IMG/VR virus record: IMGVR_UViG_3300022758_000287
DNA from: a virus
Lineage: Duplodnaviria; Heunggongvirae; Uroviricota; Caudoviricetes
Length of the DNA: 35,739 nucleotides
Reading direction: 5' to 3' (one strand)
Shown here: positions 3,369-32,611 of the stretch, one piece after another
Position numbering within the stretch: position 1 is the stretch's first letter
Layout: each line of letters starts with the position of its first letter
Notes under the pieces: model-generated
The model's input: only the letters and a program-made list of their open reading frames with translations
Databases searched by the model: none
What the model was told of the DNA's origin: nothing
Program-made: the position numbers and the translations under genes

Positions 3369-3393
3369 ATAACTTTTAGTAAACAATTGCATA

Positions 3394-4487: not shown

Positions 4488-4568
4488 CTAAACCTAGATA
4501 GAATCCACTCTGTGCACATTGAAGCCCGCTCTATGCTTTCTTTCAGGTATTGAAGGGATTGAGATGGG

Positions 4569-4871: not shown

Positions 4872-4911
4872 TCTGTTAATTTCAAATCACTTAACTGTGA
4901 ATAATCCATTG

Positions 4912-6049: not shown

Positions 6050-6122
6050 GACTTCCCTCTCCCCCAAATAAAAAGGCCTGCGATTACCTGCAGGCCTGTT
6101 ATTAGCTCAGTGATGTAGATGG

Positions 6123-6413: not shown

Positions 6414-7111
6414 ACACTTGCTCCTTTCAGTCCTAACTTAGCTTTAATTTCTGCGATCTTCGCCAGCGCCTGAACACGATTTAGAGGTCTGCCGCCCATG
6501 ACAGGAAGTTGTTTTACTGGTTCAGGTATCGTCTCACCACGGTTAATTCGCGCTGTCATACAGGTCAGTTCATCGGCAGCCTTGCGTCGTAATTCCGCGT
6601 CAGTCAGCGCATTGGCCCGCATGTTCTGGTACAGGTTGGTAACCAGCCAGTAGTGCGCGTTCGATTTCCACGGATAAGACTCTGCATCCGGATACAGGCC
6701 TCGCTTCCGGCAATACTCGTAAACCATATCAACCAGCTCGCTGACGTTTGGCAGTCCGGCGATAACGGATGCTTCTTCCCGGCACCATGCAACAAACTGC
6801 CCGGGTGATGGCAGAAATGGTCGATTCTGCCGACGGGCTACGCGCATTCCTGCGTTAACCTGTTCCATTGTGGTGATCCCGTTTTCCCGGAAAGCCAGAA
6901 CCCACTGGCGGCGGATTTCGTTCAGTTCGTTCTGGTCACGGTTAGCCAGACTCGCCGGGAAAGTTGCCAGTAACTGGCTGAACACACCGTTGATGATCTG
7001 CGCTACCTGCTGTACCTGCGGCTTTTCGTCGTACTGTTCCGGCATGTTGTTGGCGATCCGACGCATCTGCTCACGGTCAAAATTAACCATCTGTGCGGCG
7101 ATGTTTTTCAT
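6410..7111 (-). CDS. P: Replication protein P (helicase loader)
   Basis: 233 aa near-identical to lambda P. Confidence 0.95.
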   Translation of the reverse strand: MKNIAAQMVNFDREQMRRIANNMPEQYDEKPQVQQVAQIINGVFSQLLATFPASLANRDQNELNEIRRQWVLAFRENGITTMEQVNAGMRVARRQNRPFLPSPGQFVAWCREEASVIAGLPNVSELVDMVYEYCRKRGLYPDAESYPWKSNAHYWLVTNLYQNMRANALTDAELRRKAADELTCMTARINRGETIPEPVKQLPVMGGRPLNRVQALAKIAEIKAKLGLKGASV

Positions 7112-8008
7112 AAATCCACCCCGTAAATCCAGTCAGTGTTTGTCAGGTCGAGTTTTGGTTTGCAGGCTGTCACACCTGCCTGTTGCTTGTTACGGTTGAT
7201 TTCGAGCTGGGTCCACTTGTCGCGGAGTTTGGCCGGGCTCAGCACGTTACCGGACCAGAAGTTGTCCTGGCATGCCCAGCGGAACAGTACACACATGTCG
7301 CGATGGTTACGTCCGTCACGTTCACGCATCAGGCGGATATCGTTAGCCCACCCTGCAAAATTCGGTTTTCTGGCTGATGGCGCGATGGTCTTCACCATGT
7401 CAAACATCCATTCTGCGGCGGTCAGGTCTTCTGCTGTCCCCCACTTGCTGCCGCTCTGAATTGCAGCATCCGGTTTCACCACAGAAAGGTCGTTTTCTGG
7501 CTGGTCAGAGGATTCGCCAGAATTCTCTGACGAATAATCTTTTCTTTTTTCTTTTGTAATAGTGTCTTTTGTGTCCCCCCTGTTTTGAGGGATAGCAATC
7601 CCCCAATTTGAGGGATGTTTTATCCCTCGTTTTAGGGGATTTTCCCTCGTTTTGAGGGATACACCATTCTGAGATGTTTTTATTTGGTCCAAACATGCCG
7701 CCTTGCTGCTTGATAATATTCATTCTGACGAGTTCTAACTTGGCTTCATTGCACCGTTTGACGGGTAACTTTGTAATCTCGCTAAGTTGAGAATCGGTGA
7801 TTCTGTCCATTGGTTTATTCCATCCATAGGTTTTACGCAGAATGGCAAGCAGCACTTTAAACTGTCGCTTGGTCAGATCTGCGCCTGAATAAGCCTCAAG
7901 CAGCATATTTGATAGTCTGGCGTAACCATCATCGAGATCTGCCACATTACGCTCCTGTTTGGCAAAGTTACCTCTGCAGAAGTTGAGTATTTTTGCTGTA
8001 TTTGTCAT
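7108..8008 (-). CDS. O: Replication initiator O, interrupted by a +1 frameshift inside the ori iteron region
   Basis: N-terminal 140 aa and C-terminal ~150 aa both match lambda O but lie in different frames; switch at the C6 run 7575-7580. Confidence 0.85.
7574..7660. repeat. Replication origin: four iterons (tccct-N-aggga type) inside O, with adjacent AT-rich tract
   Basis: Four ~18-19 bp repeats at 7574-7592, 7598-7616, 7622-7639, 7642-7660; AT-rich run at about 7530-7573. Confidence 0.85.
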
Positions 8009-8040
8009 AATGACTCCTGTGGATTGATCCAGTAATGACC

Positions 8041-8337
8041 TCAGAATTCCATCTGGATTTGTTCAGAACGCTCGGTTGCCGCCGGGCGTTTTTTATTGGT
8101 GAGTCCATCAAGCGCATACTTAAAAGCCCTGCTAATCGGACTGATGTCTGATGCCATTCCGAAAGCACACAAGACCGAAGCAATAAATCTCCAGTCCGTT
8201 CTGCTTATCTTCGATTCATGACAGCCAATCATCTTTGCCAGACCGCGCTGGGTAATAGCTGACAGATTGATAAGTAAATCTGTTTCTGCGCGATCAACGT
8301 CACGCTGTGATAGTTTGCTGTAACTTGTTCTTTCCAT
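8041..8337 (-). CDS. cII: cII transcriptional activator (chimeric: non-lambda N-terminus, lambda-like C-terminus)
   Basis: C-terminal LTNKKRPAATERSEQIQMEF identical to lambda cII; N-terminal HTH region differs. Confidence 0.8.
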   Translation of the reverse strand: MERTSYSKLSQRDVDRAETDLLINLSAITQRGLAKMIGCHESKISRTDWRFIASVLCAFGMASDISPISRAFKYALDGLTNKKRPAATERSEQIQMEF

Positions 8338-8422
8338 TTCTTAAGATTTCCAATAGTGAATAGTTAGTTGAAAGGTATGCGTGGAAACGCATATGGCCTT
8401 AGTTGGTCAGATATCTTGGAAC

Positions 8423-8468
8423 TCGCTTTTCAGCGACGTAGGACGAATGTCCGTTGTTACAAAGAGCG
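8423..8468 (-). promoter_or_regulatory. nutR-like site: boxA (cgctctttg) and boxB hairpin (tcgctgaaaagcga) on the minus strand
   Basis: boxA-like motif 8460-8468 and stem-loop with gaaa loop 8423-8436, between cro and cII. Confidence 0.5.
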
Positions 8469-8512
8469 GATCCGCTTATTAAGCGGCTTTGTGTTCCGGC
8501 GGGAACACGTCA

Positions 8513-8695
8513 TCAAGACTGACTTTTGCGCCTAACTTGTTTTAGGCACGCAACAAGAGCACGGCATGTTTTAAGGTCTGGGAAGCGACGACCAGATTCC
8601 CAATGTCCGATAGCTCCCTGTGTGCATCCAACTGCCTTAGCAAGTGTTGTTTGAGAGATATTCAGTGACTCTCGATATTTTCGTAGGTTGCTCAT
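8513..8695 (-). CDS. cro: Cro-like HTH repressor
   Basis: 60 aa HTH protein with ggaggg RBS, divergent from cI. Confidence 0.75.
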   Translation of the reverse strand: MSNLRKYRESLNISQTTLAKAVGCTQGAIGHWESGRRFPDLKTCRALVACLKQVRRKSQS

Positions 8696-8812
8696 ATGCC
8701 CTCCATAGTAAACACGAATAAAAAAATACAATATGTACTTTGCGAATACAAGTAAAAATACACATTGTGCATGGATGGTTCCAGTACAGAGCGTAATAAT
8801 AAGGACATGAAA
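8696..8812. promoter_or_regulatory. cro-cI intergenic region: presumptive oR operators with divergent pR / pRM
   Basis: AT-rich divergent intergenic region with repeated TACAA / TTGTA half-site-like motifs; exact operators not resolved. Confidence 0.4.
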
Positions 8813-9467
<655 letters not shown>

Positions 9468-9506
9468 TGAAACCACTTTTATCTACAATTTACAGGGCGG
9501 TAAACA

Positions 9507-10064
9507 TTGGCAAAAATAGATGATTATCAGCCAAGCCAAGTAGAAGTTGATAAAGTACTTTATTGTAAAAAAATAGTTAACTTTTCTGGCGTTAAATGGA
9601 AACAGAAACCAAGTCGCTCTGATATGTGGCTACAAGCCCATATCATCCCCTTGGATGAGGATTGTATACCTATACAAGGGCTAAAGTTTGAACTGAAATG
9701 GAAACCAGATCAGGATTCAGAACCTGATGACCCGATTTCTTACCCTAAAATAAATATTATTGCTTTCTATCATAACAAGAGGGTTTTCGCGGTAGATACC
9801 TATCACTTTGACAAACACACGAATAGTTACAAGGTCGATCATCCGAAGTACCAAGATATCATTTACGGTGCTCACTACCATGTATACTATGAAGAAGCTG
9901 GATACTATAGTGATAGAATAGCGTTTCCAATCGAAGATGACATAAACCCAGATGACCTGGTAGGGTATTGGAATTACTTCTGTAAACATCTGAACATAAC
10001 TTACTCTGGGAGAATACCTTTACCGCTTGAAGATGAGTCGGGGCAAATGGGGTTTGGAATATGA
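9507..10064 (+). CDS. Hypothetical protein A (185 aa) in the rexA position
   Basis: AT-rich ORF directly after cI; apparent TTG start, or possibly ATG 9467 overlapping the cI stop if the A5 run 9512-9516 is 1 nt too long; no homolog recognised. Confidence 0.6.
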   Translation: MAKIDDYQPSQVEVDKVLYCKKIVNFSGVKWKQKPSRSDMWLQAHIIPLDEDCIPIQGLKFELKWKPDQDSEPDDPISYPKINIIAFYHNKRVFAVDTYHFDKHTNSYKVDHPKYQDIIYGAHYHVYYEEAGYYSDRIAFPIEDDINPDDLVGYWNYFCKHLNITYSGRIPLPLEDESGQMGFGI

Positions 10065-10813
10065 TGTGCTCAACAGTGATCTCACAACTAGGTTTCGAAT
10101 GCCATCCAATAGGCAAGACCTTGAGAATTATCAGTCCATTCACTTACTGTGATGATGGAGAGCATGTCGGTGCCTTTATCCGTGAAGTCAATGGTAGGTA
10201 TTTAGTTAGTGACAGATGCGATGCCTTAATGAATATGGAGGCAAGAGGGATCTCGCTTACCAAAAAACGACTTGATGAGATACGACAATTACTGCTTAAA
10301 GAAGGCGCAGAACTCAATGCTCGAGGAGAAATCATTGCTTGGGCAACAGAAAAGGATGTCGGTGCGATTACATCGAACATAATTAGAGCTGGTATACTCG
10401 CATCAACTTTGTCGTTAGACTGGTATCAGCCAGTTCAAGCTGAAAAGTTTGAAAGTATGGTTATTGATTATCTATATCACACAGAGCTTAGAGACGCACT
10501 TTCTCTTCGTGAAAACGTATATGGCTTGAGTGGACATCAAATTACCGTCCCTGTAACAATAAAAACCGACATACCTAAATACGTTTTTACATCAAGCGTG
10601 AAACACGGAGGAAGCTGGAATAGTGCTTACTCATTGCTTGGGAAACTAATTGATCTTAAAGCTTCAAGTGAGGAGTATAACAACAGATTTGTTGTTATAG
10701 ACAGCGAAGCAATTGGTGATCAAATGCAACAACTCTCCTTACTCTTCCATGAATCAAGCCAAGTTCTACCATTCTCCAAAAGAGAGACTTGGGTTAAGAG
10801 ACTTGCAGCATAA
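10061..10813 (+). CDS. Hypothetical protein B (250 aa) in the rexB position
   Basis: ATGA start/stop overlap with gene A; followed by an intrinsic terminator; no homolog recognised. Confidence 0.65.
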   Translation: MMCSTVISQLGFECHPIGKTLRIISPFTYCDDGEHVGAFIREVNGRYLVSDRCDALMNMEARGISLTKKRLDEIRQLLLKEGAELNARGEIIAWATEKDVGAITSNIIRAGILASTLSLDWYQPVQAEKFESMVIDYLYHTELRDALSLRENVYGLSGHQITVPVTIKTDIPKYVFTSSVKHGGSWNSAYSLLGKLIDLKASSEEYNNRFVVIDSEAIGDQMQQLSLLFHESSQVLPFSKRETWVKRLAA

Positions 10814-10816
10814 TAC

Positions 10817-10845
10817 AACCCGGCCTCAGCGCCGGGTTTTCTTTG
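10817..10845 (+). terminator. Intrinsic terminator ending the cI-A-B operon (tImm-like)
   Basis: Stem aacccggc / gccgggtt with loop ctcagc, followed by ttttctttg. Confidence 0.7.
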
Positions 10846-10989
10846 CCTCACGTTCGCCCACCTAAAAACACATAACCAATTATATTTATTGAAAAATAAA
10901 TAGATGCAACCCACTAAACCACGCAATTCTGATCTCTCCTTACATCGCCGAGGCAATACATCCACGCTAAAAAACAACACTATTAAATA

Positions 10990-11070
10990 CAAAGCGTTAT
11001 AAAAAACCACGCCAACTTACAACAAATTGTATTGATCTTGTAAAGTACATATCGTACTATTTAACCGTCA
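10990..11070 (+). promoter_or_regulatory. Presumptive pL / oL region
   Basis: Position upstream of nutL and N; dyad TACAACAAATTGTA and nearby TTGTA repeats; operators not resolved. Confidence 0.3.
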
Positions 11071-11106
11071 GCAGGACGCTGGAAGCCAAATGGAACAGAC
11101 TGGCAG

Positions 11107-11150
11107 GCTCTTTAAACAACGTCGACTCTCGACTACGTGGCTGAAAAGCC
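11107..11150 (+). promoter_or_regulatory. nutL-like site: boxA (gctctttaa) and boxB hairpin (ggctgaaaagcc)
   Basis: boxA-like motif 11107-11115, stem-loop 11139-11150 with the same gaaa loop as the nutR candidate. Confidence 0.5.
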
Positions 11151-11249
11151 AGATCACCCAACCACATAAGCTGTGGGATGCAATGCCGAAGCAACCGTCT
11201 CAGGAGGAGCTTCGAGATTGCATCGCCAAAGTTTATTCGGGAGGAATCC

Positions 11250-11522
11250 ATGTCCAGAAAAACAGAATTTAAAGGCACCGCAGCTTCTCGCCGTAGAGCT
11301 CGTCGCGCAAATCTGCAAAGTCAGGAGGCGATCAGCTCCGACAAGCTACACAGGCCAACCCCTTCACGAGTGGTCTTGCAATGCAAGCTCAAACCAGCAA
11401 TGAGAGCAGAAGTGATAACTCTGACAACGTTGACCAGAAAATATGAAGGTTCAACTTGTCTTCCGAACGTAGCTCTTTACGCGGCAGGCTACCGGAAATC
11501 AAAACAACTGACGGCGAGATGA
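11250..11522 (+). CDS. N: N-like antitermination protein (arginine-rich motif)
   Basis: N-terminal arginine-rich motif GTAASRRRARRA; gggagg RBS; first gene after nutL. Confidence 0.55.
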   Translation: MSRKTEFKGTAASRRRARRANLQSQEAISSDKLHRPTPSRVVLQCKLKPAMRAEVITLTTLTRKYEGSTCLPNVALYAAGYRKSKQLTAR

Positions 11523-11538
11523 TAAATTCATTTGCTAA

Positions 11539-12120
11539 TTACTTGTTTTTGCCATGCTTATCCTGAGCGATAAGTTCATCCATAAGGCTGTCTGCCTTCC
11601 CGGCAAACCTAATGTAGCACTCATGTCTATAGCTTTCAGGGATAACGAAACGGTCGGTATCAGGATATCCAACAGCAGGAGGCCTTCGAACGAGGAGTCC
11701 TTTTTTGAGCAATGAAATTGATTCATGAGCGCCCTTTTCCGTTTGTAGCTGGTTATTAGCGGCTACAGCGAATGCCAAATACGCTCTTTCTCCAAGAGTT
11801 AACGAATCAAACAAATCTTGCACATATTTTTCTTCTTTAGATTTGCGCTTCTGAGCAGCGAATACCTCAATTCTTTCAGTCACAGCGTGATAAGCGGAAT
11901 TAACAACGCCGTTAAGCACATAGCTAACGCAAAACAACAGGATGTAATACATCCAGTAATGAGGAAGGATTTCTGGACTATGCAGGTTTATCCATTCTTT
12001 TACGCTTACCGGCATAACAATAATCAATATGATCAGGATGATTAGCATATGAATCAACTGTTTAAGTGTCATTCCTTGCAGGAAAAAATGCATTAGTTCC
12101 TGCCACCATGAGTTGTTCAT
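11539..12120 (-). CDS. sieB: Superinfection exclusion protein SieB
   Basis: 193 aa near-identical to remembered lambda SieB. Confidence 0.9.
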   Translation of the reverse strand: MNNSWWQELMHFFLQGMTLKQLIHMLIILIILIIVMPVSVKEWINLHSPEILPHYWMYYILLFCVSYVLNGVVNSAYHAVTERIEVFAAQKRKSKEEKYVQDLFDSLTLGERAYLAFAVAANNQLQTEKGAHESISLLKKGLLVRRPPAVGYPDTDRFVIPESYRHECYIRFAGKADSLMDELIAQDKHGKNK

Positions 12121-21431: not shown

Positions 21432-22190
21432 TTATTTTTTTGAAACGAGAAGTTGATACAATTCCTTCAGGGATAAGGCTAATAACTCATTCTTCCTGAT
21501 GAGATCTTTATCAGCGTCTATACCCTCTGCGCATGATTCATTTAAATAGTTCAGTGTTTCCTGATCATCATCCAAGCATTCATAGCTGCCTGAATAAAAT
21601 TCATCGCAACTTGCTTTGTTATTTTTGTCAATGTAACCAATGCATTGAATCACGCCTTTAACAACTTTAGCAGCAGAAAAAACAAAGTAACTGCAGTCAT
21701 TTATATAGCGTTCAATATCAAAAATCATATAAAAATAGTGCATAGAGTGTTTTTCAATTTCAAACTCACTTGAAATCATAGCTATTTCACATTCAAGGTC
21801 TTTCAGACCATCTAACATTATGGAAAGTTTACATTGTTTTTCTTGCACAGTTTCATACTTAAATGACTCTCTCCCCTTTGCCCTGACATTTATTCTTTCT
21901 TCAATTGCATAAATATAAGCAGGATATACACGCGACCACACTTGGTTTATTTTTAGGATTAACCGGCCTCTTTTCAGCCTTTCTTTTGTAGCTATAAATT
22001 CTGCATATAGCGCAGCATCCTCTTCGCACCATACATCAACTTTTCGTTTATAACCCAACTTTAATTCTTTCCCTACGCATTCAGGAAACAAAGGATCAAA
22101 GTCCTTTAAGTATTCAAACTCACTTAGATAGAATCCTGTCTCATAACGATTAAATAATTTCCTAAACTCTTTCCCACTTAAGGTTTTCAT
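21432..22190 (-). CDS. Hypothetical protein (252 aa), AT-rich orphan gene in the b region
   Basis: Long intact ORF, visibly AT-rich, between attP and the sit operon; no homolog recognised. Confidence 0.6.
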   Translation of the reverse strand: MKTLSGKEFRKLFNRYETGFYLSEFEYLKDFDPLFPECVGKELKLGYKRKVDVWCEEDAALYAEFIATKERLKRGRLILKINQVWSRVYPAYIYAIEERINVRAKGRESFKYETVQEKQCKLSIMLDGLKDLECEIAMISSEFEIEKHSMHYFYMIFDIERYINDCSYFVFSAAKVVKGVIQCIGYIDKNNKASCDEFYSGSYECLDDDQETLNYLNESCAEGIDADKDLIRKNELLALSLKELYQLLVSKK

Positions 22191-22793
22191 TGTATCAATC
22201 ACTCTGTTTTCATAAAAGCAAAGTCAACAAGATAAAACAATAAAAACTCTTACACAACCAGCTGATGTTTTTAAAATAGAGGATAATATAAGACAAGCAT
22301 AACCTCGTTCACTTCAATGCTACTCCTATCGTTCTTTTGCGTCACAGAGCGCCTGCCGGACAACTGCATCATAGACCAAACGGAACTGCTTCCGTCGATT
22401 AATCAGATGGCAGCGCATAAACACGCTCAACAACCCGTTTGACTGCTTCAATTTTAAGCTCTTCGGAATAACGCTTACCGTGTAAGTCTCCCTGCAAAAC
22501 GAGCTATCAACTTTTAAGGAGTCTCTGGCCCCCCTGCTTCCGCTCCTGGCACACAGCAGCCCTAGAGACAGTGGAGTAAAGTCATGGAGGCTCGGTGGGG
22601 AGAGGTGCAAATCCTCCCATACAAAAAATACGAAAATCAGTAACGGCTAGAAATCATTCAATACATGCACTCTCGAAATTGCATCAGCCAACCGCAAAAC
22701 GTTATTTCAAAGCCTACTAGCTGCCTTACTTTTTTCCTCAATAACGCGTCGCCAGCCGGAAACAACCTAATCCCTGTTTTGGGCCTCAAAACC

Positions 22794-22911: not shown

Positions 22912-23802
22912 ATGCTCTTGGGGGGCCTCGCACTCACCTGCTCGATCGCATTTCAGGCAAGTGCAACTGAAAAATTCAAGGTCATTACAACATTTACCAT
23001 CATCGCGGATATGGCCAAAAACGTGGCGGGAGATGCTGCAGAAGTCTCATCCATAACCAAGCCTGGTGCAGAAATTCATGAGTATCAGCCTACCCCTGGC
23101 GATATTAAACGTGCGCAGGGGGCACAACTGATTCTCGCCAATGGTATGAATCTGGAATTGTGGTTCCAACGCTTTTACCAGCATCTCAATGGGGTTCCAG
23201 AAGTAATTGTCTCTTCGGGTGTGACGCCTGTAGGGATCACCGAAGGACCCTATGAGGGCAAACCTAACCCCCATGCATGGATGTCGCCAGATAATGCTCT
23301 GATTTACGTCGATAATATTCGTGATGCGTTGATAAAATACGATCCGGCAAATGCACAAACCTACCAACGCAATGCCGATACTTATAAAGCCAAGATTACC
23401 CAAACCCTTGCCCCCCTGCGTAAGCAGATTACGGAACTCCCTGAGAATCAGCGATGGATGGTCACCAGTGAAGGGGCTTTTTCTTATCTCGCACGCGATT
23501 TGGGGCTAAAAGAGCTTTATCTGTGGCCGATTAATGCCGATCAACAAGGAACACCGCAGCAGGTACGTAAGGTTGTTGATATAGTTAAGAAAAATCATAT
23601 CCCGGCAGTCTTTAGCGAGAGTACGATTTCCGATAAACCAGCGCGTCAGGTTGCGCGTGAAACCGGCGCACACTACGGCGGTGTGCTCTATGTCGATTCC
23701 CTGAGCACAGAAAACGGCCCGGTACCGACGTATATCGACCTTCTTAAGGTTACTACCAGTACGCTGGTACAGGGAATTAAAGCTGGGAAAAGGGAGAAAT
23801 AA
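22912..23802 (+). CDS. sitA: SitA, periplasmic Mn/Fe-binding protein of an ABC transporter
   Basis: 296 aa with signal peptide; first gene of a four-gene ABC operon; an out-of-frame ATG at 22889 suggests the true start may be 8 codons upstream. Confidence 0.85.
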
Positions 23803-24629
23803 TGATGCAATCTGCAGGCATTGTCGTTAATGATGTTACTGTCACCTGGCGTAACGGGCACACAGCACTGCGCGATGCATCCTTCACAGTACCAAGTGGA
23901 TCTATTGCCGCTCTGGTTGGGGTAAACGGTTCCGGAAAATCGACGTTGTTTAAAGCGATTATGGGATTTGTGCGTCTGACCAGCGGAAAGATATCTGTTC
24001 TGGGTATTCCCACGCGACAGGCGTTACAGAAAAACCTGGTTGCCTACGTCCCTCAGTCAGAAGATGTTGACTGGTCATTTCCTGTACTGGTGGAAGATGT
24101 GGTGATGATGGGCCGCTATGGGCATATGGGTATGTTGCGTATCGCCAAAAAGAGGGATCGTCAAATTGTCACCGATGCGCTGGAACGTGTCGATATGGTG
24201 AATTTTCGCCATCGACAAATCGGCGAGCTTTCCGGTGGACAAAAGAAACGCGTCTTTCTGGCGAGAGCGATTGCACAGCAGGGTGATGTGATCCTGCTGG
24301 ATGAACCTTTTACTGGCGTTGATGTGAAAACCGAAGCCAAAATCATCAGCCTGTTGAGGGAGTTACGCGCGGAAGGCAAAACGATGCTTGTCTCAACACA
24401 CAATCTCGGATCCGTCACGACATTTTGCGATTATACGGTCATGGTCAAAGGCACCGTCCTGGCAAGCGGGCCGACAGACACCACTTTTACAGCCGAGAAC
24501 CTAGAGCTGGCTTTTAGCGGCGTACTGCGCCATGTCACACTTAACGGCTCGGAAGAAAGCATTATTACTGACGATGAACGCCCTTTTGTGGCTCATCGAC
24601 CGTCAGCGGTGCAGAGGGAAGAAAGATGA
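23802..24629 (+). CDS. sitB: SitB, ABC transporter ATP-binding protein
   Basis: Walker [10 protein letters not shown], signature LSGGQ, Walker B ILLDEP. Confidence 0.9.
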
Positions 24630-25483
24630 ACGTGCTACTGGAACCCTTCAGCTATGAATATATGCTCAATGCGATGTGGGTCTCGGCGATGGTCGGCGGT
24701 CTCTGCGCTTTCCTGTCATGCTATCTGATGCTAAAAGGCTGGTCGCTGATTGGCGATGCGTTGTCGCACTCTATTGTCCCGGGTGTTGCGGGGGCATATA
24801 TGCTGGGGCTTCCGTTTTCTCTGGGAGCCTTCTTTTCCGGCGGACTGGCTGCGGGCAGCATGCTGTTTCTTAACCAACGCACCCGCTTAAAAGAAGATGC
24901 CATCATCGGTCTGATCTTCTCGTCCTTTTTTGGCCTGGGGCTGTTTATGGTGTCATTGAACCCGACATCTGTGAACATTCAGACCATCGTCCTGGGCAAT
25001 ATTCTGGCAATCGATCCGGCGGATATCCTGCAACTCACTATCATTGGCATTCTCTCGATCATCGTGCTTTTTTTCAAATGGAAAGATCTTATGGTGACCT
25101 TTTTCGACGAGAATCACGCCCGTGCTATTGGATTGCATCCGGGCAGATTAAAACTCATCTTCTTCACCCTGCTGTCGGTTTCGACCGTTGCGGCGCTGCA
25201 AACGGTTGGTGCCTTTCTGGTGATCTGTCTGGTGGTGACTCCCGGTGCAACAGCATGGTTGTTAACCGATCGTTTTCCCCGCCTGCTCATGATTGCTGTA
25301 ACTATTGGCAGTGTAACTAGTTTCCTCGGCGCGTGGGTCAGTTACTTTCTGGACGGCGCGACAGGTGGAATCATCGTGGTGGCGCAGACACTGCTGTTTC
25401 TTTTAGCATTTGTCTTTGCGCCCACCCATGGGCTTTTGGCAAATCGTCGGCGTGCGCATAAGGCGCTGGAGGATCGCTCATGA
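24626..25483 (+). CDS. sitC: SitC, ABC transporter permease
   Basis: 285 aa polytopic membrane protein, overlapping stop/start with sitB. Confidence 0.85.
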
Positions 25484-26337
25484 TGGCATTATTACTGGAG
25501 CCACTGCAGTTCACCTTTATGAGTCACGCACTGCTGATTTCACTGGTAGTTTCCATACCCTGTGCGCTGCTGTCGGTCTTTCTGGTCCTGAAAGGTTGGG
25601 CACTGATGGGTGACGCGATGAGTCATGCGGTTTTTCCTGGAATCGTGCTTGCCTGGATTCTGGGGTTACCTTTGGCTACAGGGGCATTCGTCGCCGGAGT
25701 ATTCTGCGCGGTGGCGACGGGATACCTGAAAGACAACAGCCGAATCAAGCAAGATACAGTGATGGGGATTGTTTTTTCTGGCATGTTTGCCGCAGGTCTG
25801 ATCTTGTATATTGCAGTCAAACCAGACGTACATCTTGACCATATTCTTTTCGGCGACATGCTCGGGATAACCATCGGCGATATAATCCAGACGATGATTA
25901 TTGCCGGGCTGGTTACACTTGTTATTAGCGTAAAATGGCGGGATTTTTTGCTGTTCAGCTTTGATTATCAACAGGCGCAGGTAAGCGGTTTGCATACGAG
26001 ATGGCTGCATTATGGGCTGCTGTGCATGGTCTCTCTGACCATTGTGGCGACGCTGAAAGCGGTAGGTATCATTCTCTCCATTTCTCTGCTCATTGCGCCT
26101 GGCGCCATTGCGGTACTCCTGACACAACGCTTTCATATTGCGCTCCTACTGGCGACTGGCATATCGGTAATAGTGTCAATGACTGGTGTCTGGTTGTCCT
26201 TTTTTATCGACAGCGCACCAGCTCCGACGATTGTCGTCTTATTCGCGGTTTTGTTCATCATGACGTTTGCCGTTACCAGCATCAACGCACGCAAAAAGGG
26301 AAACTCCCATACACAGGATCTGTTATCACCCAATTAG
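25480..26337 (+). CDS. sitD: SitD, ABC transporter permease
   Basis: 285 aa polytopic membrane protein paralogous to SitC. Confidence 0.85.
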   Translation: MMALLLEPLQFTFMSHALLISLVVSIPCALLSVFLVLKGWALMGDAMSHAVFPGIVLAWILGLPLATGAFVAGVFCAVATGYLKDNSRIKQDTVMGIVFSGMFAAGLILYIAVKPDVHLDHILFGDMLGITIGDIIQTMIIAGLVTLVISVKWRDFLLFSFDYQQAQVSGLHTRWLHYGLLCMVSLTIVATLKAVGIILSISLLIAPGAIAVLLTQRFHIALLLATGISVIVSMTGVWLSFFIDSAPAPTIVVLFAVLFIMTFAVTSINARKKGNSHTQDLLSPN

Positions 26338-26428
26338 CACAACATCCGAGGACAGCAACACCCGATACTTTTTCCTGGCTTCCAGCAACGGGGTTTCTTC
26401 CTCCGTTGCATATACAGCTCACCTTTTT

Positions 26429-26722
26429 TCACCCACGATTAACCAACAGCCAGACCAGCAGACACGCCACCACCGGCACAGCAAAATCCATCAGGCTTGC
26501 CACATCCCAAGCTCGCGGATCAAAACCGCCCCACCACGGCATATTCATTCGCTTGCCATGCCCGAACATTTCAATCCAGCGATATTCTGCCTGGGTATGT
26601 TCACGCGCAATGAAGAACGTACAACCGGCTATCGCTCCGTAAGCCCAGTTTCCGGTAAAAAGACCAACCAGTATCTGCGCAGCCACAGCACAAAGCGCAT
26701 GAAGTAAGGGGCTTATATCCAT
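26429..26722 (-). CDS. Small inner-membrane protein (97 aa) at the end of the tail-fibre operon
   Basis: Strong aaggagga RBS; two or three hydrophobic helices; no homolog recognised. Confidence 0.6.
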   Translation of the reverse strand: MDISPLLHALCAVAAQILVGLFTGNWAYGAIAGCTFFIAREHTQAEYRWIEMFGHGKRMNMPWWGGFDPRAWDVASLMDFAVPVVACLLVWLLVNRG

Positions 26723-26734
26723 TATTTCCTCCTT

Positions 26735-27013
26735 TCAGCTCCATTCCCGAAGCGGTGTTTCCAGCTCCACGACATAATCAGAGAATACAGAAACATCAAA
26801 CAAGTCATCAAGAATGCGAATGTTGACAAAATAACCGTCATTCCGGACACAGACAGGTTCTCCCTCTTCTGTTACCCCTGTTTCTGTGTAGGTGAAACCA
26901 ATTTCATCGACTAACAGTTTATTCTGGAGGTCTTCATCCTCCTCCCAGTCAAGAGATGACAGGAAGGCCTTAAACTGCAGTTTGTCATGAAACTTCAAAG
27001 TTAAATCTTTCAT
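26735..27013 (-). CDS. Hypothetical acidic protein (92 aa) translationally coupled to the tail-fibre gene
   Basis: ATGA overlap with the tail-fibre stop; position suggests a fibre assembly or accessory role. Confidence 0.5.
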   Translation of the reverse strand: MKDLTLKFHDKLQFKAFLSSLDWEEDEDLQNKLLVDEIGFTYTETGVTEEGEPVCVRNDGYFVNIRILDDLFDVSVFSDYVVELETPLREWS

Positions 27014-29070
27014 ACGACCTCTTTTAATTGCCTGTCATTTAATTCTTTATGCCATATGCGGAAATTGCGAATATGGCCAAACAGATGTCGTTCTCCAGTA
27101 TTCGTCTGCCCTCCAAATCGGATATTTTTATCAGCGGTCACACCATTATATTCACAATAAACTTCATTAACCGCTTTACCATTTGTCACCACATGAAAGT
27201 GACCATCAGCTTTTGCAATACATCCAAATGTGGTTTTCTCTGCAAATACATCTGTCGCTGCGCTATTAACATACAAGCCTGAAGGGTTTGACAGACTCAT
27301 ATATAACTTACCACTACCTCTGTTGATTGCTGCAATTGCTGATTGCCCGGTATTGGCTGCTGCTATATCCCACACGCGGGGTGCGGCGTTTGGTGCAATA
27401 TCCCAGTTTTTATGAATCTCAAGTAAAAAAGTAAATGGTAACTTATAAAGATTATTTCTGGTGGGGATACTAACCAAATCACTGGCTCTTGTCGTTGCGC
27501 TGCCTCCTGAAATAATAAATGATGATACACACGGCCCATTCTCTACTTGTGGGGTGGCAAGATAAATATAGTCACCAGATACTGTTGCCCCACCCCGCTC
27601 AGGAGAATACTGTATCTGAGAGCCTATTTTTAACTCACCATCAATTGCCTGAATCGTTGCCTCTGCAAAAATCCAGCCTGTGGTCTTATCCTTCCTGACT
27701 CGTGCCGTAATTCTGCCGGCAGCCCCACCTGTCATATTAATTTCAAGCGTTTGCGTATCAATGTACGCATCGCCAAGAAAAGTTGTTGCACTACCATCAT
27801 ACTTATCAAACCGTATACGTAACCTTACCTGTCGTTCTGTTTTAAAACGGCATGAGGTTGTCACGTACTTGTTATCGCCTGAGACATCAACTGACTTTGT
27901 TGCAGCAATTGATGCCATATTAATAGCCGAAGTTTGCCCAACCAGAGAATCGTTGCAGACAAACTTTCCATAAGTAAAACCAAAACTATCTGTCCCGGTT
28001 TCGGGCACATCCATGTTTGATGACTTCCCCCAGCTGGCTGGACTTTCCGAATTGAGCATGTAGTTCGTTCTTTGTCCCTCAATAAGCAGGCCATCACACT
28101 CAAATCGCGGCTCATTAATTTCCGCCGTTTTCAGTTCGCCAGATTTGTTGATATATGTTGCCGTTGATGCGCGACTGAAATTAACCTGTTTATCACTGGC
28201 GACCTGAACCACATCGTCACCAATAGCTATTTTTTTATAGCCCGGAGAAAAACCCGCAATCATATCCAGTGAATCGTTAAACGGTATCCACACATCAGGC
28301 AGCGGCGGCACTATATTCGCATAGGGCTCTGCAGTCACTTCCGCTGCGACTTCTGCGCGGTCTGCCGCCTTTTCAGCCCGTGTCGCTGCCGACAGAGCCT
28401 CATCCTTTTTCTGCCCGGCCTTTGTTGCGTCTGCTGCGGCCTCCCGCGCTTTTGTGGTGGCGACTCCGGCATTTTCAGCGGCTGACTCTGCATTACGGCG
28501 GGAAGCCTCTTCACTGTCTGCGGAGGCTTCTTCTGACGCACGGGCATTTGTCTCTGAACGTTCTGCCGCTGTTGCTGCGTTTTGTGCGGCTGTTTTTGAA
28601 GAAGCTGCCGCTTTCGCGCTGTTACCTGCATTCGTCTCTGATGTTTTCGCCGCATTCCTGGACGATGCCGCTGCTGTTTCTGATTTCTTTGCTGCCGCTG
28701 CGCTCTGAGAGGCGGCTTCAGCGTTGCGTGCCACCTCTTCCACCATCTTTTCAAAACGATACAGTGCCTCCGGACGAACATCATCTTCTGTTGCAGCGCC
28801 CAGAAAATCATTCAATGTCCCCGGCTTAGAATCCTCATACACGGTGATGGCCCCGGCATGTGAAGGCGGAAAACCTTCAACCAGCAGGATAACGCTGTAC
28901 TGGCCATACTCGACATCCATGCTGTAACGTCCGGCTTCATCCGGATTTTCTGAGGCCACCGTGTTCACCACAACCGTGGTGCTGTTACGTTTTGCTTTGA
29001 GCTGAATGGTGCAGTTCTGTATCGGTTTTCCTGCACCGTCTTTCAGCACGCCTGAAATCTGTACTGCCAT
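27010..29070 (-). CDS. Tail fibre protein (lambdoid side-tail-fibre type with Ala-rich central region)
   Basis: N-terminus MAVQISGVLKDGAGKPIQNCTIQLKA... typical of lambdoid tail fibres; long Ala/Ser-rich segment; ggag RBS. Confidence 0.8.
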   Translation of the reverse strand: MAVQISGVLKDGAGKPIQNCTIQLKAKRNSTTVVVNTVASENPDEAGRYSMDVEYGQYSVILLVEGFPPSHAGAITVYEDSKPGTLNDFLGAATEDDVRPEALYRFEKMVEEVARNAEAASQSAAAAKKSETAAASSRNAAKTSETNAGNSAKAAASSKTAAQNAATAAERSETNARASEEASADSEEASRRNAESAAENAGVATTKAREAAADATKAGQKKDEALSAATRAEKAADRAEVAAEVTAEPYANIVPPLPDVWIPFNDSLDMIAGFSPGYKKIAIGDDVVQVASDKQVNFSRASTATYINKSGELKTAEINEPRFECDGLLIEGQRTNYMLNSESPASWGKSSNMDVPETGTDSFGFTYGKFVCNDSLVGQTSAINMASIAATKSVDVSGDNKYVTTSCRFKTERQVRLRIRFDKYDGSATTFLGDAYIDTQTLEINMTGGAAGRITARVRKDKTTGWIFAEATIQAIDGELKIGSQIQYSPERGGATVSGDYIYLATPQVENGPCVSSFIISGGSATTRASDLVSIPTRNNLYKLPFTFLLEIHKNWDIAPNAAPRVWDIAAANTGQSAIAAINRGSGKLYMSLSNPSGLYVNSAATDVFAEKTTFGCIAKADGHFHVVTNGKAVNEVYCEYNGVTADKNIRFGGQTNTGERHLFGHIRNFRIWHKELNDRQLKEVV

Positions 29071-29085
29071 ATTCACTCCACAAAT

Positions 29086-29110
29086 AAAAAAGGCGCCATT
29101 TCTGGCGCCC
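29086..29110 (-). terminator. Intrinsic terminator between J and the tail-fibre gene
   Basis: Stem ggcgcc / ggcgcc with loop, followed on the minus strand by a T6 run. Confidence 0.55.
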
Positions 29111-29128
29111 GTATCTGGGTTATAAAAT

Positions 29129-32100
29129 TCAACTGATACTGATACCGGCTGTAGATTTCTTCATCACAACAACAAGAAGGTCGCTGATACTGGTCGTTGG
29201 CGTCCAGTTATTAGCACCATATGAAGAAACATTGAAAGTCAGGGTGACATGGCCGTGTCCGGCAGGCATATCAATGACTGATGAAAATACCCTGCTGACA
29301 TCCGTCGCGGGTTGCTGAAAGATTTCCTGTCCGTTCTTCAGTACCTGCAGCTTACAGGTTGAATACCAGTATGACTGTTGGTTGTTGCTGTTGAAGTTTT
29401 CATGCTTACCCCCACGAAACAGAACGGGGGGGACTACTATCTGACGGTCAAAAGCCTGGTCATCGTACACAGTGACCGTTATTGTACCGCTGGCATAACT
29501 GCCATTTCTCGGAAAGGCTTTTCCCACCGCTTTGACAATATCACCTTCAATCTGGTTAGCTGACAGTTTTCCCAGAATCCGACAGTTCTGATTAATCGTG
29601 ACGTTGTTGAGCGTCCCGGAGTTCGCGTTCACGTTACCGCTGATATCCGCATTTTTCGCAGAAAGTCGACCATCAGGTGTCAGTGAAAACGTTGGGGGAT
29701 TGCCACCGCTGGTAATGGTGGGAGCCGTCAGATATTTCAGGAACACTTCGTTCATGAATATCTGATCGCCCTGCCCAACAAACATCGGCTTTGTGTTGCC
29801 ATTCGCAGGATTAATCATCGCAATCCTGTCCGCCGCCAGCAGCACCTGACTCTGCATACCGTCAGGAGTATTCTCAACACCGGCACCAATACCCGCGATA
29901 TAAAGGCGTCCGTCCTGCATCTGCTGCAGCTTCACAGCCCACATGCTGTTCAGGTTATTATTTGTATCAACCTGAACCTTCTGTATCTGCTGGATCGCTG
30001 CACTCTGGTCTTCCAGTTTCTTATTGACGGTCTGCGTGATTTCATTGCTGACACCCGTAATGGACGTCCTGATTTCAGCCAGGTCAGGCGCAAGCTGACC
30101 GTTATCAATCTGCGTCCACAACTCCTGAGCCAGATGGGTTTTCCCTATCTCTCCTTTGAAAAAATTCAGATAGCCGGATGCATCATCACTCGGCTGGCCA
30201 ACAGCCTCCACAAATGCCGATTTGCCAACGGTGTTCACACTGCGGATGTAAAAATAATAATCATGGCCCGGTTTGATATTGATACTGGCGGCTATCCAGT
30301 ACAGCGCCGTGCCAAGATAGCGTGCTGTGGTTTCAACCTGCCTGATATCCGCAATCCGCTTTTCCGAGAACCAGAACTCAAACTGTACCGTCGGATCATA
30401 AACCGCAAGATGCGGCGTGGCGGTTATCTGAAAATACCCCGGTGTCAGCTCAATCTGCGACGGCGCTGCCGGTGCGGCAATCCGGAACGATACCGATGCC
30501 GGATCGCCCTGCTGCCCCCACGCATTTACCGCCCGGACTGTCAGCCTGTAGTTCCCCAGCGCCAGTTGCCTGAAGCGGTATGTGGTTTCCGTCGTCCGGG
30601 CCGTGCTGGCCAGCCGCTCACTGCCGTCATCCGCTGCCACGGTCAGGCGAAGCATAAAGCTCACCCCCTTCACCACCTTCGGCGTGTCCCAGCGCGCCAG
30701 CACCTGATATTCCCCGCTGTCTGCGGTGACTTCGGCAGTCAGGTGCTGCACCGCTGGCGGCGTGACACCATTCACCGTGCCGCTCTGGTCGCCGTCAAAG
30801 TGCGCCCCGTTATCCACGATGGCCTCTTTTTCCGGTACATGCTGCACGGCAGTGATGGCATACGTGCCGTCATCGTTCTCACGGATACTCACACAGCGGA
30901 ACAGGCGCTGGCGCAACGTCGGCAACTTCAGCCCCCACACGCTGTATTCTGCAACGCCGTCAGGAACACGGCTCACTTTTACCTTCACGCCGTCGGTGAC
31001 GGACTGGACCTCCACGCTGACCGGATTCCCCTGTCCGTCAGCCAGGCTTATCAGCGTGGTGCCGGAGGATGGCAGCGTGATTTCACGGTCGAGCGTCAGT
31101 GTCCGCGTCTGGTTGTTCACCGCCAGCACGCGCCCGCCGATGCTGATCCCCGCATAGTCATCATCACAGATTTCAATGACATCGCCCGGTACATGGCGAA
31201 GCCCTTCTGCACCCACGCTGAAGTCCACGGTCTGCGTTTCCAGCAGTTCCGTTTTAATCAGCCACAGCCCGGCGCGGTGTGCCTGCCCCCGGCTGGTACA
31301 GCCAAAAGCATCCATCTTCGTGACGTTACGACCGTAACGGGCAATGGCCTGCGTATCCTCCACAAGCTCTGTCGCCGTCTCCCAGCCGTTGTCCGGGTCA
31401 ATCCAGTTCACCTCAACGGCATTATGGCGGTCTTTCAGGGCGCTGAAGCTGTAGCGGAACGGCGCGCCATCATCCGGCATCACCACATTACTGCGGTTAT
31501 AGGTCCACACCTTATCCGACGGTCGGTCCTGCACGAACGTCAGCGTCTGCCCGTTCCATACCGGCATACAGCGCATCGCCGAGCAGAAATCACTGAGCAC
31601 ATCCCACGCCTTGCGCTGTGTGGTCAGGTACGCATTACAGGTGATGCGCGGCTCCGTGCCGCCAAAGCCGTCCGGCACTGACTGGTCGCAGTACTGGCCG
31701 ATGACATACAGCGCCCATTTGTCCACATCCGCCGCACCAAGACGTTTCCCCATGCCGTAGCGCGGGTGGGTCAGCATATCCCACAGACACCAGGCCATGT
31801 TGTTGCTGTATGCTGGTTTTAACGTTCCGTCCCAGATACCGCTGTATTGCCGCGTCTGCGGGTTATAATTCGACGGCACCTGCAGAATACGCCCGCGCAG
31901 ATGATAATTACGGCTCACCTGCTGGCTGCCGAACTGCTCCGAATCCACCTGCACGCCGACCAGTGCCGTGTTCGGGTAGCACTGTTTCACATCGATGATT
32001 TCGGTGTATGACGACCAGAGCGTTTTGTTCTGCAGCTGGTCTGTGGTGCTGTCCGGTGTCATCCTGCGCATCCGGATATTGAACGGGCGCGGAGGCAGGT

Positions 32101-32611
32101 TATCCACCACCACCGAGGCCAGATACTGCGAGGTGGTTTTGCCCTTAATGGTGATGTCTTTTTCCGTCACCCAGCCACCGTTACGCTGTATCTGAACCAG
32201 CAGGCGAACTTCCGACGGATTCCTGTCTCCCTTTGAGGTGGTTTCCACCAGTGCCTGCACGCCGAAAGTAAAACGCAGACGGTCAATGTTTGCCGACGTG
32301 ATGGTCCGGGTGATCGGCGTGTCATATTTCACTTCTGTACCGAGCACCGTCTCGGAGCCGGAGGATTCAAATCCCTCCGGCGGTGTCTGCTCCTGCTCAC
32401 CGGCCCGGAACACCACCGTGACGCCGAATATATTGGTATTCCCCTCACTGTCCAGCACCGGCGTACTGTTCAGCAGCACGCTTTTTAATCCATCCACCGG
32501 ACCTTCAACCGGCCCTTCGCTGATGGCGTCTATCACGCTCAGCATCTGGGATGATTTCAGGTTGTCCTTCGCTTCGCGCGGGGTATGCCCCTTACTGCTG
32601 CCTTTACCCAT
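29129..32611 (-). CDS. J: Host specificity / central tail fibre protein J
   Basis: 1160 aa, N-terminal ~1000 aa near-identical to lambda J; C-terminal receptor-binding region divergent. Confidence 0.95.

What the first reader, a model, noticed from the sequence alone, without database searches (positions are those of the whole stretch)
26429..27013. Two small genes after the tail fibre, including a 97-aa membrane protein in a position typical of exclusion factors
A 92-aa acidic protein is translationally coupled to the tail fibre gene, followed by a 97-aa hydrophobic protein with a strong RBS. Small membrane proteins encoded next to tail fibre genes in lambdoid phages include receptor-blocking superinfection exclusion factors (Cor-like). 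Assignment here is by position only.
Basis: inference. Interest (0 to 1): 0.45.

Follow-up and report, generated by a model that had tools for sequence, protein, structure and literature searches.

The report
Fibre helper plus unknown membrane protein
The two small genes behind the tail fibre gene of this phage-21-like lambdoid phage are real but unrelated: one is a helper that always travels with this kind of fibre, and the other belongs to a large, unstudied family of tiny membrane proteins that phages of every tail type carry directly behind their receptor-binding genes.

Summary
Observation confirmed. On the minus strand, a 92-aa acidic protein (26735-27013, ATGA overlap with the fibre gene) is followed by a 97-aa membrane protein (26429-26722, AAGGAGG RBS). 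The region is 100% identical to phage 21 (gp23, gp24).

The 92-aa protein is a fibre accessory. Homologues overlap the 3' end of the same lateral/side fibre gene in temperate lambdoids, a phage-plasmid and virulent T1-like and T5-like phages and Dhillonvirus.

The 97-aa protein is not Cor-like: it shows no homology and has no conserved lipobox. It belongs to a large uncharacterised family (2292 clusters, no Pfam/NCBIfam/PADLOC/PDB match). The model has three helices (pLDDT 96) and a near-invariant RE-x-TQAEYRWI...NMPWWGGFD loop.

It lies directly behind receptor-binding genes of at least five unrelated types, in sipho-, podo- and myoviruses. In P22-like and epsilon15-like phages it occupies the slot where relatives carry O-antigen conversion genes. 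It stays 95-100% identical while the neighbouring fibre end falls to 36-38%. It also occurs as a syntenic chromosomal gene in Aeromonas, Leclercia and sphingomonads.

Best reading, inferred only: an autonomous envelope-acting accessory gene, a receptor-independent exclusion or conversion factor. Function is untested.

The parts
27010..29076 (-). Side (lateral) tail fibre gene, 688 aa. This is context: the upstream gene to which the 92-aa gene is coupled.
   Evidence: Pfam phage_tail_N 9.8e-69, Laminin_G_3, NCBIfam GTA_spike_fiber domain, phrog_1419. Annotated 'side tail fiber' in phage 21.
26735..27013 (-). 92-aa acidic protein (phage 21 gp23, phrog_1361): a fibre-coupled accessory protein.
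   Evidence: ATGA overlap with the fibre stop codon. pI 4.1. AF2 alpha/beta fold at pLDDT 90, with no convincing structural neighbour. Homologues overlap the fibre gene's 3' end in 145 phage records, including virulent T1-like, T5-like and Dhillonvirus phages.
27018..27023 (-). Shine-Dalgarno AAGAGG of the 92-aa gene, inside the end of the fibre gene.
   Evidence: Read from the sequence.
26728..26734 (-). Shine-Dalgarno AAGGAGG of the 97-aa gene, 5 nt before its ATG and directly after the TGA of the 92-aa gene.
   Evidence: Read from the sequence.
26429..26722 (-). 97-aa three-helix membrane protein (phage 21 gp24, phrog_1443, UniRef name 'Ybl63'). It is the last gene of the tail operon.
   Evidence: phrog_1443 2.4e-58. 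No Pfam, NCBIfam, PADLOC or PDB match. AF2 pLDDT 96, helices 4-23, 26-53 and 74-96. GC 53% against 43% for the 92-aa gene. dN/dS 0.12.
26504..26605 (-). Codons 40-73 of the 97-aa protein: the near-invariant segment R-E-x-T-Q-A-E-Y-R-W-I ... G-x-G-x-R-x-N-M-P-W-W-G-G-F-D ... W.
   Evidence: Invariant or near-invariant columns in alignments spanning alpha-, beta- and gamma-proteobacteria and Desulfovibrio.
26345..26428 (-). About 85 nt of 3' flank conserved together with the 97-aa gene in E. coli lambdoid prophages. Beyond it the cargo differs (here, convergent sitD).
   Evidence: DNA alignment of the downstream regions. The predicted RNA fold is not significant (z = -1.68).

Best explanation
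The two ORFs are two unrelated modules at the 3' end of the late tail operon.

(1) The 92-aa acidic protein is a dedicated partner of this type of lateral/side tail fibre. It is translated by coupling to the fibre gene and most likely helps fold, trimerise or attach the fibre's distal part. Its linkage to the fibre is shown; its chaperone or adaptor role is inferred.

(2) The 97-aa protein is an autonomous accessory gene from a large uncharacterised family. Family members are about 100 aa, form three membrane helices, and carry a near-invariant charged and Trp-rich loop between helices 2 and 3.

Phages of all three tail types, and prophages in alpha-, beta-, gamma- and deltaproteobacteria, place this gene directly behind their receptor-binding gene. 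In two genera this is the slot where relatives carry O-antigen conversion genes. The protein does not change when the receptor-binding end changes.

The most likely mechanism follows from this. The protein inserts in the inner membrane and uses the conserved loop to bind or modify a conserved envelope component. That alters the cell surface or the entry route in a receptor-type-independent way. In other words, it would be an exclusion or conversion factor, not a Cor-like plug of one outer-membrane receptor.

Shown: the gene, the family, the fold model, the positions and the lack of co-variation. Inferred: membrane topology, target and phenotype.
For: Both are real genes under selection.

92-aa protein:
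- It overlaps the 3' end of phrog_1419-type fibre genes in temperate lambdoids, an SSU5-like phage-plasmid, and virulent Hanrivervirus, Tequintavirus and Dhillonvirus phages.
- Its identity falls from 100% to 36% as the fibre diverges.

97-aa protein:
- High-confidence three-helix model with an invariant loop motif across classes.
- It lies within 27 nt of, or overlaps, the upstream gene behind a lambdoid side fibre, a P22-like tailspike, a P2-like tail fibre assembly gene, a 2520-aa J protein, short fibres with an S74 chaperone domain, a Desulfovibrio tailspike and an Mtd-like target gene of a diversity-generating retroelement (DGR), with bAvd downstream. Distances are listed.
- Slot equivalence holds in two genera. 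In phiv142-3 it replaces the epsilon15 gp21/gp22 seroconversion genes. In JEP4 and Gally it replaces the oac of Sf6 and the gtrABC of epsilon34.
- In Gally it has a terminator upstream and a promoter-like site of its own.
- Its GC content differs by about 10 points from the 92-aa gene next to it (53% against 43%).
- It stays 95-100% identical while the fibre C-terminus falls to 36-38%.
- It is present in 1903 of 5426 complete E. coli genomes, with up to 7 copies.
- Virulent HC6-type phages carry only a frameshifted remnant.
- It also occurs in non-structural accessory clusters, such as a P1-like plasmid.
Against: No phenotype has been tested, and no homology to any known exclusion, conversion or defence protein was found.

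In the window there is no promoter between the fibre gene and the 97-aa gene. Promoter-like sites in the region do not exceed chance (3 found against 4.0 +/- 2.0 expected). Here the gene therefore looks late-expressed, whereas known conversion genes (oac, gtrABC, epsilon15 21/22) lie on the opposite strand with their own promoters.

Close homologues (57-64% identity) are syntenic core-chromosome genes in Aeromonas, Leclercia, Silvania and Sphingomonadaceae, with no phage genes nearby. That fits a cellular housekeeping role.

Intact divergent homologues exist in virulent Aeromonas jumbo phages.

Topology is ambiguous by charge counts.
Confidence: 0.4

Rival explanations
1. One reading: the 97-aa protein is a Cor-like superinfection exclusion factor that blocks one outer-membrane receptor (FhuA, LamB or OmpC) used by the phage.
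For: It is small and hydrophobic, and it lies next to tail genes, as cor does in HK022. The sequence IAGC at residues 31-34 resembles a lipobox.
Against: BLASTP finds no alignment to HK022 Cor, and the two fall in different PHROGs (1443 against 1119). Cor is a 77-aa lipoprotein with an N-terminal LSGC lipobox. Here Cys34 is replaced by A or S in alphaproteobacterial members, and the segment is modelled as a membrane helix. The same protein (95-100% identical) follows fibres with different receptor-binding ends, and versions 77-79% identical follow P22-like and epsilon15-like tailspikes. Homologues occur in sphingomonads and Desulfovibrio and as chromosomal genes.
Confidence: 0.05
2. The 97-aa protein performs an ordinary cellular membrane task, as a small enzyme, regulator or stabiliser of a conserved envelope machine. 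Phages carry it as fitness cargo, like the neighbouring sitABCD, with no direct role in phage-phage or phage-receptor interactions.
For: It has syntenic, non-prophage chromosomal copies: Aeromonas (pirin - gene - RIO1 kinase), Leclercia, Silvania, and Sphingomonadaceae (directly after ligA in at least 4 genomes). Loop conservation across classes is typical of enzymes or obligate partners. Selection is purifying. There is no PADLOC match.
Against: The chromosomal neighbours share no functional theme: pirin, ligA, cyclophilin, GNAT, cyclopropane-fatty-acid synthase. The recurrent placement directly behind receptor-binding genes of unrelated families, and in conversion-gene slots, would be unexplained.
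Confidence: 0.25
3. The 97-aa protein has a late lytic-cycle function tied to the receptor-binding proteins or to release. Examples are keeping progeny from being lost on the producer's envelope, tuning lysis, or aiding fibre maturation at the membrane.
For: It is co-oriented with, and usually translationally coupled to, the upstream tail gene (gaps of -20 to +27 nt). No promoter precedes it in the window. In Comamonas and Pantoea prophages and in phiv142-3 it lies between the receptor-binding gene and the holin/endolysin cassette. Intact homologues exist in virulent Aeromonas phages.
Against: Phage 21 has its lysis cassette elsewhere. Chromosomal and P1-like-plasmid copies sit away from any tail or lysis gene. 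The protein is invariant across very different fibre types. Dedicated fibre chaperones are already present upstream in several contexts (DUF4376 or Tfa-like proteins). In virulent HC6-type phages it has decayed.
Confidence: 0.2
4. The 97-aa gene persists mainly as a conserved flank that lets fibre cassettes be swapped by homologous recombination, and gives the cell or phage little or no phenotype.
For: The gene and about 85 nt of 3' flank are nearly identical among E. coli prophages, while the fibre end upstream and the cargo downstream vary. A remnant travelled with an S74 fibre into virulent phages.
Against: dN/dS of 0.12 and protein-level conservation across bacterial classes show selection on the protein itself.
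Confidence: 0.05

Closest known systems
Cor superinfection exclusion lipoprotein (HK022, phi80, N15, T1; phrog_1119)
   Same: A small protein encoded in the tail/host-range region of lambdoid phages.
   Different: No sequence similarity. Cor is a 77-aa secreted lipoprotein, whereas the 97-aa protein is a three-helix integral membrane protein without a conserved lipobox. Its distribution goes far beyond FhuA-dependent phages.
O-antigen seroconversion modules next to tailspike genes (epsilon15 gp21/gp22, Sf6 Oac, epsilon34/P22 GtrABC)
   Same: It occupies exactly the same genomic slot in phages of the same genera (Uetakevirus, Lederbergvirus). It is also a membrane protein encoded next to a glycan-binding receptor-binding protein.
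   Different: No homology. The known modules are on the opposite strand with their own promoters. The 97-aa gene is co-oriented and mostly coupled to the receptor-binding gene. The family also occurs in sphingomonads; that they lack LPS is my own knowledge, not tested here.
Inner-membrane injection blockers (HK97 gp15, P22 SieA, T4 Imm)
   Same: Small phage-encoded inner-membrane proteins, moron-like, acting independently of the outer-membrane receptor.
   Different: No sequence similarity to HK97 gp15 and no PHROG or PADLOC link. Those proteins are not known to have conserved chromosomal homologues across bacterial classes (own knowledge).
Tail fibre assembly chaperones (lambda Tfa, Mu U, DUF4376 proteins), compared with the 92-aa protein
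   Same: A small protein encoded immediately after the fibre gene and translationally coupled to it. It is retained with the fibre in virulent phages.

Membership tests
Cor superinfection exclusion protein (phrog_1119) | Sequence homology to Cor | tested here: not met
   BLASTP against HK022 Cor gives no alignment at E <= 100. The 97-aa protein matches phrog_1443 and phrog_34165 only; Cor matches phrog_1119.
Cor superinfection exclusion protein (phrog_1119) | N-terminal signal peptide with a conserved lipobox cysteine (lipoprotein) | tested here: not met
   Cor has MKRLIICIAGALMLSGC. In the 97-aa family Cys34 is not conserved (A or S in alphaproteobacterial members) and lies inside modelled helix 2.
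Cor superinfection exclusion protein (phrog_1119) | Blocks adsorption of FhuA-dependent phages | not testable with these tools
   Needs expression and plating assays.
PHROG 1443 (unknown function) | Full-length profile match | tested here: met
   E = 2.4e-58, residues 1-96 against profile positions 1-96 of 97.
PHROG 1361 (unknown function), for the 92-aa protein | Full-length profile match | tested here: met
   E = 8.1e-42, residues 1-91 against profile positions 1-91 of 92.
Moron (as annotated in HK97: an independent transcription unit inside the late operon) | Nucleotide composition different from the neighbouring genes | tested here: met
   The 97-aa gene has 53% GC, against 43% for the 92-aa gene and 42% for the fibre's 3' end.
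Moron (as annotated in HK97: an independent transcription unit inside the late operon) | Own promoter upstream and terminator downstream | tested here: inconclusive
   No promoter-like site lies between the fibre gene and the 97-aa gene in the window, and there is no canonical terminator after it. In phage Gally, however, the homologue is preceded by a terminator and a promoter-like site.
Moron (as annotated in HK97: an independent transcription unit inside the late operon) | Expressed from the repressed prophage | not testable with these tools
   The only transcript data found (phiv142-3, PMC7724020, supplementary table S1) do not list the homologue orf5.
O-antigen seroconversion proteins (epsilon15 gp22, Oac, GtrABC) | Homology to a known conversion protein | tested here: not met
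   No alignment to epsilon15 gp22, and no Pfam GtrA or acyltransferase hit.
O-antigen seroconversion proteins (epsilon15 gp22, Oac, GtrABC) | Located between the tailspike gene and int, or between the tailspike gene and the lysis genes | tested here: met
   Homologues in JEP4, Gally and phiv142-3 occupy that slot. In the window, the gene lies between the fibre genes and the cargo/att region.
Tail fibre assembly chaperone (Tfa-type), for the 92-aa protein | Homology to Tfa, Caudo_TAP or DUF4376 domains | tested here: not met
Tail fibre assembly chaperone (Tfa-type), for the 92-aa protein | Encoded directly after the fibre gene and inherited with it | tested here: met
   The stop and start codons overlap here and in KarlJaspers and Stokescottia; a homologue also follows the fibre gene directly in plasmid p108. 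145 phage records have a match next to fibre genes.

The most novel reading that the evidence does not exclude
The 97-aa family is a previously unrecognised, very widespread class of phage- and prophage-borne inner-membrane proteins. It would act on a conserved envelope machine, for example a step shared by surface-glycan export or by phage genome entry. That would give receptor-independent exclusion or surface conversion. The gene would have been recruited repeatedly from a cellular gene and parked behind receptor-binding genes in sipho-, podo- and myoviruses.
Probability: 0.25. Interest if true: 0.7.

Novelty: new variant of a known kind. Interest (0 to 1): 0.5.

Why it matters
About a third of complete E. 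coli genomes carry this 97-aa gene, often in several prophages, and relatives occur across the Proteobacteria. Yet it has no Pfam family, no solved structure and no literature.

It recurs behind receptor-binding genes and in known seroconversion slots. This makes it a concrete, cheaply testable candidate for a new exclusion or conversion mechanism, or for an unknown conserved envelope function that phages borrow.

The 92-aa protein is a candidate assembly or adaptor factor for a lateral fibre type shared by lambdoid, T1-like and T5-like phages. That is relevant to engineering host range.

Tried and rejected
- Pfam, NCBIfam and PADLOC scans of both proteins gave nothing above noise: PhoR 0.037 and LUD 0.064, both below their cut-offs.
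- A profile search of PDB sequences gave 0 hits.
- An exhaustive profile search of 1.8 billion representatives found 430 relatives, all stand-alone proteins of about 60-145 aa and none fused to an informative domain.
- The literature gave nothing on 'Ybl63' (one unrelated hit). The phage 21 genome paper says nothing about these genes. The DT57C branched-fibre papers describe a different fibre type. The phiv142-3 study deleted the neighbouring orf6, not the homologue orf5.
- Chromosomal neighbours of homologues showed no common functional theme.
- The promoter/terminator scan of the window found nothing above chance. The RNA fold of the 3' flank was not significant.
- A possible distant homologue of the 92-aa protein in Comamonas gave only hhalign P = 0.0098 and is left as a lead.
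- A cleaved 29-aa signal peptide, as noted in GenBank, was considered and set aside. The segment lacks a basic N-region and is modelled as a helical hairpin.

Full report
**What the window is.** The tail-fibre, small-gene and sitD stretch (26300-29200) is 100% identical to Escherichia phage 21 (OL657228). It is 99.9-100% identical to phages ev017 and PhiR63_2. The left part of the window (1-12000) matches ev017 and PhiR57_1 best, at 99.8%. The window is therefore a phage-21-like lambdoid genome.

All the genes in question lie on the minus strand:
- J: 29129-32611
- side tail fibre: 27010-29076
- 92-aa gene: 26735-27013
- 97-aa gene: 26429-26722
- sitABCD cargo, convergent on the plus strand: 22912-26337

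**Observation.** It is confirmed in every detail.
- The ATG of the 92-aa gene overlaps the TGA of the fibre gene (ATGA at 27010-27013), with AAGAGG 4 nt upstream.
- The 97-aa gene starts 12 nt after the 92-aa stop, with a perfect AAGGAGG 5 nt before its ATG.
- The 92-aa protein has pI 4.1. The 97-aa protein is hydrophobic, with GRAVY +0.53.
- Both are real genes. GenBank annotates them as CPT_21_23 ('hypothetical protein') and CPT_21_24 ('putative membrane protein'). Each has a full-length PHROG match of unknown function, phrog_1361 and phrog_1443. The 97-aa gene has dN/dS of 0.12 among 30 E. coli alleles.

**The 92-aa protein goes with the fibre.**
- It has only 48 clusters in the large protein database, nearly all from E. 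coli and one from Shigella. tblastn nevertheless finds it in 145 phage records, always under or beside a tail fibre gene.
- These records include virulent phages. In Hanrivervirus KarlJaspers the order is lateral tail fibre, then this gene, then a 'putative lateral tail fiber chaperone'. In Tequintavirus Stokescottia the order is collar, 790-aa tail protein, this gene, second fibre. Dhillonvirus phages carry it too.
- An SSU5-like phage-plasmid also has it.
- In E. coli prophages there are two architectures. One is fibre (about 688 aa), 92-aa gene, 97-aa gene. The other is fibre (about 790-800 aa), 93-aa gene, a second short fibre of 227-346 aa with an S74 intramolecular-chaperone end, then the 97-aa gene.
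- Its identity to the window copy ranges from 100% down to 36% as the fibre diverges.
- Retention in virulent genomes and obligatory coupling to the fibre gene argue for an assembly or adaptor role. This is inferred; whether the protein is a virion component is unknown.

**The 97-aa protein belongs to a large unknown family.**
- A single-sequence search gave 577 clusters and a profile search gave 2292, none with a functional name or a Pfam domain.
- An exhaustive search of 1.8 billion representatives gave 430 relatives, all stand-alone proteins of roughly 60-145 aa.
- Pfam, NCBIfam, PADLOC and PDB sequence searches are empty.
- The only name found is UniRef 'Ybl63', which has no literature.
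- Members come from gamma-, beta- and alphaproteobacteria, Desulfovibrio and one Dehalococcoidia MAG.
- Invariant or nearly invariant positions are H8, R40, E41, T43, Q44, A45, E46, Y47, R48, W49, I50, G56, R58, M61, P62, W63, W64, G65, D68, W72, D79 and P83. Cys34, Cys87 and His42 are not conserved outside the gamma and beta clades.
- AlphaFold with a 97-sequence alignment gives pLDDT 96 and three helices: 4-23, 26-53 and 74-96. Fold searches return only generic helical bundles.
- Charge counts put a net positive charge on the C-terminus (2.66 K+R against 0.32 D+E) and on the helix 1/2 turn. The conserved loop is net neutral (4.45 against 4.12).
- I therefore lean towards N-out, C-in, with the conserved loop on the periplasmic side. 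This is an inference and could be wrong.

**Where the 97-aa gene sits.** This is the most informative result. In phages and prophages it lies directly behind the receptor-binding gene or its chaperone, usually overlapping it or within 27 nt. This holds for unrelated tail systems:
- lambdoid side fibre
- P22-like tailspike, with a 4-nt overlap in JEP4
- P2-like Halomonas phage phiHAP-1, where it overlaps the tail fibre assembly gene and precedes the sheath gene
- a Comamonas prophage, after a 2520-aa J protein
- short fibres with an S74 chaperone domain
- Leclercia, Pantoea, Chelativorans and Sphingobium prophage fibres
- a Desulfovibrio tailspike, with a gap of 0 nt
- a diversity-generating retroelement (DGR), where it lies between the Mtd-like target gene and bAvd

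**Slot equivalence.** Two comparisons within a single genus are telling.
- In the Uetakevirus phiv142-3 the order is tail fibre, 97-aa homologue (orf5), gp23-like membrane protein, holin, endolysin. In epsilon15 the gp23 homologue is 93% identical, and the same slot holds the O-antigen polymerase gp21 and the alpha-polymerase inhibitor gp22.
- In the Lederbergviruses JEP4 and Gally the homologue is the only gene between the tailspike gene and int. In that slot Sf6 carries oac and epsilon34 carries gtrABC.
- In Gally the gene is preceded by a strong terminator and a promoter-like site, which is moron-like.

**Independence from the fibre.**
- Across E. coli prophages the 97-aa protein stays 95-100% identical. 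Over the same loci the 92-aa protein drops to 36% and the last 200 residues of the fibre drop to 36-38%.
- Its GC content is 53%, against 43% for the 92-aa gene and 42% for the fibre's 3' end.
- About 85 nt of 3' flank are conserved with it before the cargo diverges.
- It is found in 1903 of 5426 complete E. coli genomes, with a median of 2 and up to 7 copies.

**Evidence that complicates an exclusion reading.**
- Homologues at 57-64% identity are stable chromosomal genes without phage neighbours. Examples are Aeromonas (pirin, gene, RIO1 kinase, lipid A acyltransferases), Leclercia, Silvania, and Sphingomonadaceae (immediately after ligA in at least four genomes, or after a cyclophilin). No functional theme is shared among the neighbours.
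- The gene also occurs in an early accessory cluster of a P1-like plasmid, beside a toxin-antitoxin/Fic/transposase patch, and intact but divergent in virulent Aeromonas phages.
- In virulent HC6-type phages only a frameshifted remnant follows an S74 fibre.
- In the window no sigma-70-like promoter precedes the gene, and promoter-like sites do not exceed the shuffled expectation. Here it looks like the last late gene. The known conversion genes, by contrast, are on the opposite strand with their own promoters.

**Comparison with known exclusion proteins.**
- There is no alignment to HK022 Cor, a 77-aa lipoprotein with an LSGC lipobox (phrog_1119), to HK97 gp15, or to epsilon15 gp22.
- The lipobox-like IAGC in the phage 21 protein is not conserved and sits inside a modelled helix.
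- Membership in the Cor family is therefore tested and not met. 'Works like an exclusion or conversion factor' remains open.

**Conclusion.** The Cor analogy fails, and the two genes should be separated.
- The 92-aa protein is a fibre accessory (confidence about 0.7).
- The 97-aa protein is an autonomous accessory membrane protein of an unstudied, widespread family.
- My preferred mechanism is an inner-membrane factor whose invariant loop engages a conserved envelope component and so changes the surface or the entry route independently of receptor type. I hold it at about 0.35-0.4.
- The main rivals are a cellular housekeeping function carried as cargo (0.25) and a late lytic-cycle role (0.2).
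- All of these can be tested with simple expression, deletion and topology experiments.

Noticed in passing
window 22912-26337 (+): A complete sitABCD iron/manganese ABC transporter is carried as cargo. It is convergent with the tail operon and starts right after the conserved 3' flank of the 97-aa gene. Other prophages have different cargo at the same junction: an AraC-like regulator, a methyltransferase, a DNA invertase, or a 1484-aa protein.
   Followed up: partly
window 2063-3205 (+): A 380-aa ORF lies in the region that matching phage records (ev017, PhiR57_1) annotate as an outer-membrane porin (NmpC/OmpD/OmpC-like). It is another envelope-related cargo gene of this phage. This left part of the window matches ev017 rather than phage 21.
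   Followed up: no
window 29091-29110 (-): A strong terminator-like hairpin (8 pairs, 6 GC, then a T-run) lies between J and the side fibre gene. It is also annotated as a terminator in OL657228. The fibre, the 92-aa gene and the 97-aa gene may therefore depend on antiterminated late transcription.
   Followed up: partly
L156 (phage 4A7, NC_049946) 2626-5042: Three genes annotated as transposases are inserted between the side fibre gene (shortened to about 642 aa) and the 92-aa gene of an isolated phage. The 92-aa and 97-aa genes are left intact downstream.
   Followed up: partly
L162 (phage HC6, OL362274) 3465-3620: An unannotated, frameshifted remnant of the 97-aa gene (…RRRANIPWWGGFDWRAWDLPSLLD) lies right after an 859-aa fibre with an S74 chaperone end. 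The same remnant occurs in ST1UNAM, PBM-2 and PBM-3. It suggests transfer of a fibre cassette from a prophage into virulent phages.
   Followed up: partly
L034 and L036 (Comamonas nitrativorans, Pigmentiphaga humi) 6785-8691: A cassette that looks like a diversity-generating retroelement, with a 97-aa homologue between the Mtd-like variable protein gene and bAvd. A 354-aa ORF follows but was not examined. This arrangement was not seen elsewhere.
   Followed up: partly
L013 (Comamonas kerstersii) 7714-8001: A 95-aa protein lies between a phrog_5939-type fibre and the 97-aa homologue, and both of its junctions overlap. It resembles the 92-aa protein weakly (hhalign P = 0.0098, 31% identity over 52 columns). 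The three-gene module may therefore extend to betaproteobacteria.
   Followed up: partly
window 21432-22202 (-): A 256-aa ORF of unknown function (CPT_21_31 in phage 21) lies between the att/int region and sitA. It was not examined.
   Followed up: no
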